A stretch of 64,000 bases of DNA from the human T2T-CHM13v2.0 reference genome, Homo sapiens, in the NCBI RefSeq assembly GCF_009914755.1, contig NC_060947.1; one strand, written 5' to 3'. Made by a program: the position numbers and the translations under genes. Positions within the stretch are counted from its first letter, which is position 1; each line of letters opens with the position of its first letter. The notes beneath the pieces were generated by a model. That model was not told the DNA's origin, did not search any database, and saw only the letters and a program-made list of their open reading frames with translations. Shown piece after piece: positions 59,919 through 63,787 of this stretch.

Positions 59919-61239
59919 ATTACTGAGGAAATCAAATCTTTTTGAATCACTACTTAAGACAAACTCACTGAAAACCAAGTAGCTGAGATTTGGAGTTATT
60001 CAACCTAAGAACTTTTTCAATAGGATATTCTTCAACTCTTCAACATGCTTAGAAATAATATTAAAGTATGAAAAAGTCGAAAAAAAATGAAGCCTTAAAA
60101 ATAAAAATATAAAGGAAAAAGGAATTGAATAATACTTCTTAAAACTTTTAAGTGAGCCTCCTTGCTTATTCTCCGTGACCACCTCACTCTCACAAAAAGT
60201 GAGACATAATATACCAAATTGAACATTGGATGAGGGTCAGAAAGCCTAGGTTTAAGAATTGGTTCCATCACTTCCTAGGCACATGACCTCGGTAAAGTTC
60301 TGTCCTTGAGGCTGTTTCCTCATCTTCAAACAGTTCTAACGACACCCTACAGCCCATCTCAAAAGGGGTGCTACCAATGAAATATACAAATGCAAGATAC
60401 GATTATAATGGAATCTGTACTGCTGTAGAAACATCAAAGGTACACAGCCCTAATTTTACAAGCAAATCAGTGCCTTTGTAGGCTCAGTGAAGTTTCTGCG
60501 TAAGGAGATTAAGTTTGCACAGTAACCCCCAAACCAGGACACCTCACAAATACTAAGAGGAGACTTTTGCAGTTTAAAACTCTACTTCTAGGTTTCTATT
60601 TTATGTTTAGGGGCACTAAAAGACATTACAACTCATAGTCCAAACCTGAAAACAATAGTAAAAAAAATTTAAGGTCGCAGATTTAAAAAACTCCACAAAA
60701 CTAACAAATCTTTCCAAACAAAGAGAATCCCCTGGATGAAGGTCTCCCGTGCTTGCAGAAGCTGGTTCACTTGACAATTTCCTCTCGAATTTCTCCTTAA
60801 AAAAGCATTAAAACCTGAGAGAAGTTGAAAGGAACTCCCTCCATCTCTAGAGCAGGAGTATACCTCAGCATAATTTTTTCCATCTCTTTAAGTAAAACCT
60901 GCAAACCTCCTAGTTAGAATATAGTGTATTTAACTCCACGTTTCTCCTCAGGGCTCTTATCCTCTAGACAATAACGGAATAGAGCACGATTTCTGTGACA
61001 GAGAAGGGAAGTCCCTTTGGCCAGAACAAGGTTGTGGGCATGGAATGACCGGTCCTGTGTGGGGGGAACCTGCGCAGAAAGAAGGGGTCACAGGGTCTCT
61101 GATGCCTGAAAGTTCGGAATCCCCTCAAGTCTCTTTTCGTTTGATTGAAGAGACTTGAGGGTGGGCGGGTCTCCGTCAAACATCAGTATCAACCGTACAA
61201 AAGACGAAAGGGAGTTGCCTCCAGAATGAAAAGCCCAAA

Positions 61240-61915
61240 CCGGGTTGGAAACAGACCGACAGGACTCAGGAGGTGAGAAGGCTGCCGCAGCTGCCGCGGC
61301 CCGCGAAACCACTGCCCGCCGCGGGCCGCCAGGCTCTACCTCCAGAAAACCCTCCCCCTTCAGGGCCCGGCGCAAGATGGTGGCCCACCAGCTACCACGC
61401 CGCCAAGCCTGTCCCCTCCCCCGCACCCCCGTCGATCCGCACCGGCATAGAGACCCTCAGCCAGCCGCCCTCAGAACCGCCCTCTGGGGAAGGCTGCCTC
61501 GGCCGCGCGGGAGAGCTGCTGCCTCCTTCCGCGCGGCACAGGCGGGGGCGGGGGCCGCTTACCGAGAGCAGAGCAGATCGGTCTGACTGGGGTTCGGATA
61601 AGGAGGAGGAGAAAGAGGAGGAGGAAAGGGAGGAGCGCGAAAAACCTCAGGCGACAGCCTCAGCAACAGCGACTCCCCCGGAGACTTCCAGCGCGGAACC
61701 GGCGTCTCAGCCGGGGGCAGAAGTATATAACTGCACGCGCTGCCTCATGGGTAGACGCCGACTCCACCCCCTGAACATCCGGGGCCTTTTAACCGCCCAC
61801 GGACGGACGGCTGGTACTTACATGTGCACATGTGCAGCTACTTTACTTACCGTCGAAGGCAGCGGAGGAAGTGTAATTGACTAGCGTGGATGCAGCTTTT
61901 CTAAGCAAACGCTCG
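61240..61915. promoter_or_regulatory. CpG island / ZNF280C promoter
   Basis: High GC and CpG density in an AT-rich window; GC boxes GGCGGGGGCGGGGGC at 61541-61555; YY1-like CAAGATGGTGGC at 61373-61384; ETS-like GAGGAAGTG at 61865-61873. Confidence 0.9.
61563..61710 (-). other. ZNF280C: ZNF280C non-coding exon 1 (5' UTR); 5' end approximate
   Basis: Inside the CpG island; donor CTCG|GTAAGC at 61563/61562; TATA-like TTATATAC on the minus strand at ~61723-61730. Confidence 0.75.
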
Positions 61916-62396
61916 ATTTAACCTGGAGTTGTCATCCCAAAAAATACATTGTACCTGACTACAGAGAAACATGAATTCTGGGTCTTCCTTGTGTGTGAGG
62001 GCTAAAGACACGAGTTAAAAATATAAATATATTGTTTTCTGGAAATACTGTACTTGAAACACGTCTCAAAATACTAGTTATTTTTACCTTTTGTTTTAAA
62101 CATATGGTTTTGCTTGTCTCTCTGTTACTTCTAATTGCCATATGGATGCCTATAGTAGGTACAAAAAATGCTAAGGAAAAATACATTTACTCTTACACAC
62201 AAGGAAGACCCAGAATTCATGTTTCTCTGTAGTCAGGTACAATGTATTTTGTGGGATGACAACTCCAGGTTAAATCGAGCGTTTGCTTAGAAAAGCTGCA
62301 TCCACGCTAGTCAATTACACTTCCTCCGCTGCCTTCGACGGTAAGTAAAGTAGCTGCACTTGTGCACATGTAAGTACCAGCCGTCCGTCCGTGGGC
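61795..62396. repeat. Long inverted repeat: 205-bp arms (61795-61999, 62192-62396), 192-bp AT-rich spacer
   Basis: Arms are reverse complements with 3 mismatches by eye (61831/62360, 61940/62251, 61997/62194). Confidence 0.97.
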
Positions 62397-62650
62397 TGGC
62401 CGCGGTGGCTCACACTTCTAATTCCAGCACTTTGGGAGGCTGAGGTGGGTGGATCACCTGGGGTGAGGAGTTTGAGACCACTTCCCTTTCCTCCTCGCCT
62501 TTCTCCTCCTCCTTCTCTGAACCCCAGTCAGCCTGACCAACATAGTGAAACCCCATCTTTACTAAAAATACAAAATTAGCAGGGTGTGGTGGCACATGCC
62601 TGTAATCCCAGCTACTTGGGAGGCTGAGGCGGGAGAATCACTGGAACTTG
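62394..62650 (+). mobile_element. 3'-truncated AluS-type element with a 50-nt non-Alu insert
   Basis: Alu left arm and part of right arm; stops at GAGAATCACTGGAAC with no A-tail; insert at 62481-62530. Confidence 0.9.
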
Positions 62651-62784
62651 TAAATACATTTACAAGAAAAACACTTGCCAAAATACTGCTTACAGAAACA
62701 TTTTCTAGACATTGTGCTTTGAACTGTAAAAGTTTCTTCTCCCAAATTTCTCCACAAGGTTTATAGCAGTACTGGTTCATCTCT

Positions 62785-63078
<294 letters not shown>

Positions 63079-63149
63079 CCAATTCATCTCTTAAGAGTTG
63101 CCCAGACTGAAAATATCGTGTGGCTTACATAACACACACGTAAATCCTG

Positions 63150-63787
63150 TCACTGAATCCTACCATTTTTTTTATTTGAGCTAGTTTTTTCTTTCTTATT
63201 TATACAGCTATTTGCTTCTGACCCTGAAAATAAGCTTTACAGGAAAAGACAGAGAATAATCAAAATAAAACAGTGAAAAGTCCCAAAATCTTGGAGCATG
63301 CATAGTTGGTCCCTGCTTCCGGTCAGGGTGATAAGAAAGTCCGGGCACCTTTTCCTTTGATGCCAGCAGGAAATTTAAAACTAGCAAATCTACAGCCGCA
63401 TGACTCTGCTTTTGGCTGTAGTGGGAAATTTAAAACTTGTGATTCTCCAGCCTGCCTCCTTCTTTGGCATTGGTGGGAAATTTAAAACTGGCAACAAAAA
63501 TTGGTGCAGTTGAGAAATTTAAAACTTGCAAATCTACAGCCTGTGCGGCATTTTCACCAGCCCCACTTCCTAGATGCTATAAAGGCCCATCCAACTTCCT
63601 CTGCCTCTGAAACCAGCCCAGACCTGTTTGCAGCACCCAGCCCTCCCTCACTTACCCCCACTAGTCCCCAGGGTAATAAAATTTCTCTCAAATTCTCTTG
63701 TCATATCTAGTGTCACGAGTGTCCACATCCAACCTAAAATTACGAGGAGGAATGGTCAAACTGCCTCAGCAGGATGACCAGAAAACA
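63150..63787 (+). mobile_element. Probable solo LTR (ERV-type, family not assigned; left boundary uncertain)
   Basis: Repeated enhancer-like motif x4, then CTATAAA at ~63577, AATAAA at ~63676 and a terminal ...AAAACA. Confidence 0.45.

What the first reader, a model, noticed from the sequence alone, without database searches (positions are those of the whole stretch)
61795..62396. 205-bp near-perfect inverted repeat at the ZNF280C promoter, apparently homogenised between arms
Seen: arms 61795-61999 and 62192-62396 are reverse complements with 3 mismatches (~98.5%), around a 192-bp AT-rich spacer. I do not recognise the arms as any transposon. All 9 CpGs are kept in both arms, whereas the abutting Alu has lost most of its CpGs and the co-located exon-1 copy is ~10% diverged. 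Inference: if the block arrived in one old event, the arms are far too similar, implying arm-to-arm gene conversion (as in larger sex-chromosome palindromes), recurrent spacer inversion, or selection for a ~200-bp stem. The stem could act as a cruciform or as a promoter-upstream dsRNA hairpin (ADAR/Dicer substrate) ~100 bp from the TSS.
Basis: partly seen in the sequence, partly recalled or inferred. Interest (0 to 1): 0.85.

Follow-up and report, generated by a model that had tools for sequence, protein, structure and literature searches.

The report
Short palindrome beside ZNF280C promoter
A unique 205-base inverted repeat just upstream of the human ZNF280C gene looks like the scar of a complex Alu-linked insertion whose two arms have stayed, or been made, almost identical; nothing yet shows that it has a function.

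Summary
Arms 61795-61999 and 62192-62396 are reverse complements with 3 of 205 mismatches and a 192-nt AT-rich spacer. They are the only two copies in the 3.1-Gb assembly.

New anatomy:
- The right arm abuts the first base of an old Alu, Alu1, 62394-62650.
- Alu1 carries a clean ~48-nt sense copy of ZNF280C exon 1.
- The block of right arm plus Alu1 is bracketed by an exact 12-nt direct repeat (P about 0.001).

So the right arm is the derived copy, inside a composite templated insertion.

Alu1 keeps 1 of 15 consensus CpGs and has no close source copy elsewhere. The arms share all 9 CpGs. If the arm entered with Alu1, the arms are far too alike (P <= 5e-5). They would then have been homogenised later, by gene conversion or template switching.

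The rival is a younger inverted copy, 1.5-43 My old, that landed by chance on the Alu junction.

No primate orthologues were available, so this stays open. Function as a cruciform or dsRNA was not tested. Interest is moderate.

The parts
61563..61700 (-). ZNF280C exon 1; the transcription start is at 61700
   Evidence: Annotation supplied with the finding. It lies in the GC peak of 0.62-0.73.
61583..61631 (-). Stretch of exon 1 that served as the source of the short copy inside Alu1
   Evidence: 49 nt aligned to 62483-62531 with 4 mismatches, one of them a CpG transition.
61701..61794 (.). Single-copy proximal promoter between the start site and the left arm
   Evidence: blastn with word size 7 of 61632-61794 against the window found only itself. 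GC 0.62, CpG o/e 0.79.
61795..61999 (.). Left arm, the probable source copy, native to the upstream shoulder of the CpG island
   Evidence: GC falls smoothly from the island through this arm into the spacer. CpG o/e 0.79. GTAAGT on the minus strand at 61816 and 61845.
62000..62191 (.). Single-copy AT-rich spacer, read as the pre-insertion flank
   Evidence: GC 0.29 with 2 CpGs. No other copy in the window or the genome.
62179..62190 (+). Left copy of the exact 12-nt direct repeat, a candidate target-site duplication
   Evidence: It is the longest common substring of the two flanks. P(>=12) was 0.0011 for random window pairs and 0.00045 for shuffled flanks.
62192..62396 (.). Right arm, the derived inverted copy of the left arm
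   Evidence: It lies inside the block bracketed by the direct repeat. It forms a GC bump in AT-rich DNA.
62394..62480 (+). Alu1, 5' part. Its 5' end is complete and overlaps the arm end by 3 nt (GGC)
   Evidence: The Rfam SRP model matches from 62395. Non-CpG divergence from the window-Alu consensus is 10/73; 1 of 7 CpGs is kept.
62481..62528 (+). Insert of about 48 nt inside Alu1: a copy of exon 1 in the ZNF280C sense orientation
   Evidence: The Alu is contiguous across the insert: 62480 pairs with 62993 and 62529 with 62994 of the neighbouring Alu. The two parts cover consensus positions up to 87 and from 84.
62529..62650 (+). Alu1, 3' part. It ends early, with no Alu 3' end and no poly-A
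   Evidence: Non-CpG divergence 6/106; 0 of 8 CpGs kept; it ends at consensus position 206 of 292.
62652..62663 (+). Right copy of the 12-nt direct repeat
62785..63105 (-). Neighbouring full-length Alu (Alu2). It is context only, and it forms weaker inverted pairs with Alu1
   Evidence: 83-91% complementary to Alu1; non-CpG divergence 16/247.

Best explanation
The palindrome is most likely the by-product of one old composite insertion into AT-rich DNA upstream of ZNF280C, and not a transposon or a designed hairpin.

Proposed origin (inferred):
1. An Alu was being inserted.
2. The copying enzyme switched templates twice to nearby ZNF280C sequence, either the minus-strand DNA or its sense RNA.
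3. The first switch took 49 nt of exon 1, in mid-Alu.
4. The second switch came at the Alu's 5' end and took 205 nt of promoter-upstream sequence.
5. The result is right arm, Alu 1-86, exon-1 piece and the rest of the Alu, flanked by a 12-nt target duplication.

The right arm faces its source across 192 nt, and that makes the inverted repeat.

Alu1 and the exon-1 piece have since decayed, while the arms differ at only 3 of 205 sites. The arms must therefore have been re-copied from one another at least once in the last 1.5-43 My. The route would be gene conversion or replicative template switching between the arms.

Shown here: the anatomy, the uniqueness of the arms and the discordance in decay. 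Inferred: the single event, its enzymology and the homogenisation. No function is implied. The likeliest effect is a neutral hairpin-prone scar beside the promoter.
For: 1. An exact 12-nt direct repeat brackets right arm plus Alu1; P is about 0.0005-0.001.
2. The right arm ends on the Alu's first base with a 3-nt overlap. The Rfam SRP model starts at 62395.
3. The Alu is contiguous across the exon-1 insert.
4. Both ZNF280C-derived pieces are in the sense orientation and colinear: 61583-61631 comes first and 61795-61999 after it, in the direction of copying.
5. Alu1 is old and decayed in place.
   - Non-CpG divergence is 16/179, and 1 of 15 CpGs is kept, against a mean of 0.35 in 29 window Alus.
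   - No source copy exists. The best genome matches are 95% for the 3' part and 89% or less for the 5' part, with 40 of 4012 candidates scored.
   - The two other exact matches to a private 24-mer are only 80-90% alike.
6. If the arms had the same age as Alu1, 17-33 non-CpG mismatches would be expected against 3 seen (P <= 5e-5). The exon-1 copy, at 3/47, fits the old age (P 0.03-0.39).
7. The arms versus the exon-1 copy: 3/205 against 4/49, Fisher p = 0.028.
8. GC falls smoothly through the left arm, while the right arm plus Alu1 is a GC bump in AT-rich DNA.
9. Precedents in print:
   - L1-driven complex insertions with target duplications, template-switching reverse transcription, templated genomic DNA and local inverted duplications (PMC11702581, passages).
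Against: - Alu1 lacks its 3' end and poly-A next to the right-hand repeat. A standard Alu insertion does not leave this, so a later deletion or unusual priming must be assumed.
- The nick site is only loosely like the L1 endonuclease consensus (recalled).
- A return to exactly the Alu position that was left (86/87) is odd for a single copying run.
- The two Alu parts differ in divergence, 10/73 against 6/106.
- Arms of 205 nt are near the lower limit for efficient mammalian gene conversion (recalled).
- The exon-1 clock rests on 49 nt of partly low-complexity sequence.
- 3/205 alone fits a plain duplication 1.5-43 My old.
- No outgroup sequence was available.
Confidence: 0.5

Rival explanations
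1. A younger, separate inverted duplication. Long after the Alu arrived, a replication template switch or break repair copied 205 nt of promoter-upstream DNA in reverse. It placed the copy between the Alu's target duplication and the Alu's first base. The arms are alike simply because the copy is young, so no homogenisation is needed.
For: - 3/205 gives 7-15 My as a point estimate and 1.5-43 My as a range.
- All 9 CpGs are shared and no mismatch is at a CpG.
- Template-switch events up to 318 bp segregate in human haplotypes (PMC9435742, passages).
- Alu1's missing 3' end shows that the locus has had more than one event.
Against: - The insertion point would have to fall by chance within about 3 nt of the junction between target duplication and Alu. 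My estimate for that is roughly 1 in 100 or less.
- It needs at least three separate events on one Alu.
- Two of those events would have to copy ZNF280C sequence in the same orientation and colinear order.
Confidence: 0.3
2. Both arms are held alike by selection because the stem works as a hairpin RNA, a cruciform or a doubled promoter module. Homogenisation may or may not also occur.
For: - The stem is very stable once single-stranded: RNA -437.7 kcal/mol against -151.6 for shuffles, and DNA -278 against -63.9.
- It lies 95-696 nt upstream of a CpG-island start site.
- Each arm carries two GTAAGT motifs.
- Expressed, structurally stable inverted duplicates have been argued to be functional (PMC5398296, abstract and section 12).
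Against: - No expression, RNA-editing or conservation data were available here.
- No Rfam family fits. The only non-Alu hit scores 30.9 bits against a cut-off of 211.
- The right arm arose as part of an insertion scar.
- By recalled knowledge, a 192-nt spacer disfavours cruciform extrusion.
- Selection alone rarely holds 205 nt at 98.5% in two copies.
Confidence: 0.05
3. A non-autonomous DNA transposon with long terminal inverted repeats.
For: It has inverted termini around an AT-rich core.
Against: - These are the only two arm copies in the genome, and the spacer has no other copy.
- No target duplication flanks 61795-62396; the 8-nt flanks differ.
- The direct repeat that was found brackets the right arm plus Alu instead.
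Confidence: 0.02
4. An assembly artefact, that is, a fold-back chimera.
For: None was found. Fold-back read artefacts do exist (recalled).
Against: - The arms differ at 3 sites and enclose a 192-nt unique spacer.
- The structure is 602 nt, well within the length of a single long read.
- The flanks are ordinary unique sequence and Alu.
Confidence: 0.01

Closest known systems
Large sex-chromosome palindromes with arm-to-arm gene conversion (human X and Y)
   Same: They are inverted arms around a unique spacer on a sex chromosome. Their arm identity is far above what the surrounding DNA predicts. The proposed cause is also the same, copying between the arms. Sources: PMC8327919 and PMC8981503, of which I saw only the starts of the abstracts in the listing.
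   Different: Those arms are kilobases to megabases long, more than 99% alike, and carry testis genes. Here the arms are 205 nt and 98.5% alike, carry no gene, and arose beside an Alu. Concerted evolution is not shown here.
Short-range template-switch mutations and quasi-palindrome correction
   Same: In one step they make or perfect an inverted copy of nearby sequence. Events up to 318 bp have been seen (PMC9435742). A near-perfect repeat made perfect between chimp and human has been described (PMC5453318). Homogenisation of arms and inversion of the spacer are reported in yeast (PMC8604942, start of the abstract only).
   Different: Most described events are tens of bases long with short spacers. 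Here the copy is 205 nt across 192 nt, and it is joined to an Alu and to a 12-nt flanking duplication.
Complex L1-driven insertions (template-switching reverse transcription, templated genomic DNA, local inverted duplications)
   Same: It has a flanking duplication of typical length. Its segments are joined in one orientation. The 5' end of the retroelement is fused to another sequence. It also makes an inverted duplication of DNA near the target (PMC11702581, passages).
   Different: There is no poly-A and the Alu's 3' end is missing. The described cases are fresh events in cultured cells and tumours, whereas this one is germline and old.
Closely spaced inverted Alu pairs
   Same: They are hairpin-prone inverted repeats of a few hundred bases within 1 kb. 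Such pairs are present next door, Alu1 with Alu2 at 83-91%.
   Different: The arms here are unique sequence and not a repeat family. They are also far more alike than any of the other 18 pairs in the window.

Membership tests
DNA transposon / MITE | Multiple copies in the genome | tested here: not met
   Only the two arms match in 3.1 Gb, and the spacer has no other copy.
DNA transposon / MITE | Target-site duplication flanking the outer ends of the inverted termini | tested here: not met
   The flanks of 61795 and 62396 are unrelated.
Sex-chromosome palindrome with concerted evolution | Arms closer within a species than between species | not testable with these tools
   No primate genomes are held; the genome search states that G000 has no relatives.
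Sex-chromosome palindrome with concerted evolution | Long arms (kilobases) with more than 99% identity | tested here: not met
   Arms are 205 nt with 202 of 205 sites complementary. The size criterion is recalled from the literature.
L1-mediated (target-primed) composite insertion | Target-site duplication of about 7-20 nt bracketing the insert | tested here: met
   An exact 12-nt direct repeat at 62179-62190 and 62652-62663, P about 0.001.
L1-mediated (target-primed) composite insertion | Poly-A tail at the 3' end next to the duplication | tested here: not met
   Alu1 ends at consensus position 206 of 292 and has no A-run before 62652.
L1-mediated (target-primed) composite insertion | Fused segments in the same transcriptional orientation, with the switch at the end of a template | tested here: met
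   The right arm, the exon-1 piece and the Alu are all in sense orientation on the + strand. The arm joins the Alu at its first base.
L1-mediated (target-primed) composite insertion | L1 endonuclease-like nick site (T-rich / A-rich) | tested here: inconclusive
   The left repeat is preceded by an A-run (GGAAAAA...), which would give a T-rich primer on the bottom strand. It is not the recalled consensus.
Template-switch mutation (four-point model) | Reverse-complement copy of sequence within a few hundred bases | tested here: met
   The copy lies 192 nt from its source. The length is within the 318-bp maximum reported.
Template-switch mutation (four-point model) | An ancestral allele lacking the copy, with a one-step change | not testable with these tools
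   It needs an outgroup or population haplotypes.
Known structured RNA / miRNA hairpin | A match to a curated family above its gathering score | tested here: not met
   There were 8 matches at E <= 1 in 61000-63300. Seven lie in the Alus (SRP and mir-1268 models). The other is MIR8562 at 30.9 bits against a cut-off of 211.

The most novel reading that the evidence does not exclude
A 205-nt promoter-proximal palindrome was created 30 My ago or more, by an Alu insertion that switched templates onto nascent ZNF280C upstream RNA. It has since been kept homogeneous across primates. That would show concerted evolution working at the 200-base scale. The stem would be retained because transcripts through it form a long hairpin that tunes ZNF280C or feeds RNA-editing or small-RNA pathways.
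Probability: 0.07. Interest if true: 0.7.

Novelty: new member of a known kind. Interest (0 to 1): 0.4.

Why it matters
If the right arm is as old as its Alu, the locus would be a compact case of arm-to-arm homogenisation far below the size of the classic sex-chromosome palindromes. It would carry its own internal clocks, the Alu and the exon-1 piece. It would also be a fossil of an Alu insertion that copied neighbouring promoter sequence.

If the arm is young, it is an ordinary lineage-specific template-switch duplication.

Either way it places a hairpin-prone 602-nt structure 95 nt from a CpG-island start site. That could matter for replication stability or for upstream transcripts, but nothing here shows an effect.

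Tried and rejected
- **Transposon reading:** rejected, because there are no other copies and no flanking duplication of the whole repeat.
- **Known RNA family:** nothing beyond the Alu-derived SRP and mir-1268 hits, plus a shape-only sub-threshold miRNA hit.
- **Recent patchwork copied from an old Alu elsewhere:** no source was found.
  - The best non-self matches in the window are 87% (5' part) and 91% (3' part).
  - The best in the genome are 89% or less and 95%, with only 40 of 4012 candidates scored.
  - A private 24-mer has 3 exact hits including itself, out of 270 hits with up to 1 mismatch. The two others are 80-90% alike.
- **Alu1 as an inverted copy of its neighbour Alu2:** not supported. 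Mismatches are 12/80 and 11/119, and by eye the shared changes sit at CpG sites or at positions I recall as subfamily-typical.
- **More hidden homology between the flanks:** none. The 61632-61794 stretch and the stretch after the Alu have no meaningful partner.
- **An RNA start at 61999 on the minus strand as the reason the arm ends there:** a TATA-like run lies 20-35 nt upstream. However, 9% of the other 246 AT-rich positions show the same, so the support is weak.
- **Canonical poly-A signals:** none in 61700-62700 on either strand.
- **Literature:**
  - ZNF280C with 'inverted repeat' gave 0 papers.
  - ZNF280C with 'palindrom' gave 4 papers, unrelated by title.
  - A five-term search requiring any two terms listed 15 papers, none mentioning ZNF280C.
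  - Supplements were not opened.

Full report
**Observation**

The inverted repeat is real and placed exactly as described.
- The repeat finder reports arms 61795-61999 and 62192-62396, 205 nt, 99% complementary, 192 nt apart.
- A base-by-base comparison gives three mismatches, at 61831/62360, 61940/62251 and 61997/62194. None is at a CpG, and each arm has nine CpGs.
- Complementarity drops to chance at both ends: 8 of 39 positions outward and 7 of 29 inward.
- Spacer GC is 0.29 and arm GC is 0.47.
- Among 19 inverted pairs in the 64-kb window with arms of at least 80 nt and no more than 2 kb apart, it is the only one above 92%. I take the other 18 to be Alu pairs from their coordinates and the Alu hits; I did not check each.
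- As a single strand it folds into one long stem. RNA gives -437.7 kcal/mol against -151.6 +/- 6.2 for 20 shuffles. DNA gives -278 against -63.9 +/- 4.9. That follows from the repeat and adds nothing further.

**Not a repeat family and not a known RNA**

The arm matches only its two own places in the 3.1-Gb assembly. A 696-nt query covering promoter, arm, spacer and arm finds nothing else at E <= 10. The tool warns that its counts are lower bounds, and very old copies below about 70% identity could be missed.

No target duplication flanks the whole repeat.

Rfam gave 8 matches at E <= 1 in 61000-63300. Seven lie in the Alus. The eighth is a shape-only miRNA hit at 30.9 bits against a cut-off of 211.

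**What surrounds it**

- The right arm ends on the first base of an Alu, Alu1, 62394-62650, plus strand. The three bases 62394-62396 fit both the arm and the Alu start. The SRP model begins at 62395.
- Alu1 is interrupted at 62481-62528 by about 48 nt. These are a copy of ZNF280C exon 1 (61583-61631) in the gene's sense orientation, 45 of 49 identical.
- The Alu is contiguous across this insert. 62480 and 62529 pair with adjacent bases of the neighbouring Alu. The two parts cover consensus positions up to 87 and from 84.
- Alu1 stops at consensus position 206 of 292, with no 3' end and no poly-A.
- The whole block of right arm plus Alu1 is bracketed by an exact 12-nt direct repeat, at 62179-62190 and 62652-62663. 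A common substring that long between two 32-nt flanks occurred in 0.11% of 20,000 random window pairs and in 0.045% of 20,000 shuffles.
- GC declines smoothly from the CpG island (0.62-0.73) through the left arm (0.47) into the spacer (0.30). The right arm plus Alu1 forms a GC bump between AT-rich stretches of 0.30 and 0.38.

I read this as follows. The left arm is native promoter-upstream sequence. The right arm is the derived copy. It sits inside a composite insertion with a target-site-like duplication.

**Clocks**

- Against a majority consensus of 29 Alus from the window, Alu1 differs at 16 of 179 non-CpG positions (10/73 and 6/106) and at 14 of 30 CpG-site bases.
- It keeps 1 of 15 consensus CpG dinucleotides. 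The 29 others average 0.35, with a range of 0.11-0.77.
- No close source copy exists.
  - The best non-self matches in the window are 87% and 91%.
  - The best in the genome are 89% or less for the 5' part and 95% for the 3' part, with 40 of 4012 candidates scored.
  - A 24-mer carrying Alu1's private changes has 3 exact hits including itself, out of 270 hits with up to one mismatch. The two others are only 80-90% like Alu1.
- So Alu1 decayed where it lies and is old. By recalled Alu subfamily ages, that means tens of millions of years.
- If the arms had diverged for as long as Alu1 without correction, 17-33 non-CpG mismatches would be expected. Three are seen, giving P(<=3) from 5e-5 to 2e-11.
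- The chance of keeping all nine CpGs would be 3e-11 at Alu1's retention rate and 8e-5 at the window mean.
- The exon-1 copy fits the old age, at 3 of 47 non-CpG sites (P 0.03-0.39).
- Arms against the exon-1 copy, 3/205 against 4/49, gives Fisher p = 0.028. It gives 0.003 with the ungapped 6/54 and 0.084 with non-CpG sites only.
- Taken alone, 3/205 corresponds to 7-15 My, with a Poisson range of 1.5-43 My. This uses assumed rates of 0.5-1e-9 per site per year.

**Two readings**

(a) One old composite event, then homogenisation of the arms.

In favour:
- the bracket;
- the join at the Alu's first base, which is the natural place for a copying enzyme to leave a template;
- the fact that both ZNF280C-derived pieces are in the sense orientation and colinear, while the Alu is also traversed colinearly. 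This is as if one polymerase run alternated between two templates.

Precedent exists. Experimental L1 expression gives insertions with target duplications that contain template-switched reverse transcripts, templated genomic DNA and local inverted duplications (PMC11702581, passages read).

Homogenisation of short inverted repeats by template switching is also documented. A near-perfect repeat is made perfect between chimp and human (PMC5453318, passages). It is reported in yeast too (PMC8604942, start of the abstract only).

The required rate is modest. With the recalled steady-state relation d = 2u/c, about 1.6e-6 per site per generation is enough. That amounts to one or two events in the arm's history.

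Against:
- the missing Alu 3' end and poly-A;
- the exact return to Alu position 86/87;
- arms near the lower limit for mammalian gene conversion (recalled).

(b) The Alu, and perhaps the exon-1 piece, came first, and a separate, younger template switch added the right arm.

This needs no homogenisation. Events of this size segregate in humans, up to 318 bp (PMC9435742, passages). But the new copy must then have landed by chance within about 3 nt of the junction between duplication and Alu, and it must have copied ZNF280C sequence in the same orientation and order as the earlier piece.

I put (a) at about 0.5 and (b) at about 0.3. These weights are judgement, not computation.

**Function**

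Nothing here shows a function.
- The left arm occupies -95 to -299 relative to the annotated start, and the right arm -492 to -696.
- Each arm carries two GTAAGT motifs, at 62341 and 62370 on the plus strand and at 61816 and 61845 on the minus strand.
- No canonical poly-A signal lies in 61700-62700.
- A TATA-like run lies 20-35 nt upstream of 61999 on the minus strand. It would fit an upstream start whose RNA 5' end defined the arm's inner boundary. But 9% of the other 246 AT-rich positions show the same, so this is only a lead.
- By recalled knowledge, a 192-nt spacer makes cruciform extrusion from duplex DNA unlikely. Hairpins in single-stranded DNA or in a transcript that crosses both arms remain possible.
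- In this assembly the spacer keeps the orientation it had at insertion. The left 12-mer is at its right end, direct with its partner. This gives no sign of an odd number of spacer inversions.

**Limits**

- No primate or population sequence could be reached.
- The literature searches found nothing on this structure. ZNF280C with 'inverted repeat' gave 0 papers. ZNF280C with 'palindrom' gave 4 papers, unrelated by title. Supplements were not opened.
- The following are recalled and not tested here: Alu subfamily ages, the L1 endonuclease consensus, typical target-duplication lengths, the minimal length for gene conversion, and cruciform kinetics.

**Verdict**

However, concerted evolution is unproven and the functional ideas are untested. 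The locus is best filed as a new example of known processes, and a simple primate alignment would settle it.

Noticed in passing
62481-62528 (source 61583-61631): An insert of about 48 nt sits cleanly inside an old Alu. It is a sense-strand copy of ZNF280C exon 1, with 2-3 nt of shared bases at each junction. It looks like a templated insertion in its own right.
   Followed up: yes
62179-62190 and 62652-62663: An exact 12-nt direct repeat brackets the right arm plus Alu1. I read it as a candidate target-site duplication, although no poly-A precedes the right copy.
   Followed up: yes
62394-62480 versus 62529-62650: The two parts of Alu1 differ in non-CpG divergence from the window consensus, 10/73 against 6/106. 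I have no explanation for this. It could be noise, different histories, or error-prone copying next to the arm.
   Followed up: partly
61816, 61845 (minus strand); 62341, 62370 (plus strand); 62000-62040: Each arm holds two perfect GTAAGT donor-like motifs. On the minus strand a TATA-like run lies 20-35 nt upstream of 61999. Together these hint at an unannotated upstream first exon of ZNF280C, but only weakly, since 9% of nearby positions show the same.
   Followed up: partly
62394-62650 with 62785-63105: Alu1 and the neighbouring minus-strand Alu form a second inverted pair, 83-91% complementary and 228-512 nt apart. The promoter-upstream kilobase therefore holds two nested hairpin-prone structures.
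   Followed up: partly
63343-63543: Three to four loose direct repeats of about 52-55 nt share a GGGAAATTTAAAACT-like core (families D2 and D3). Their nature is unknown.
   Followed up: no
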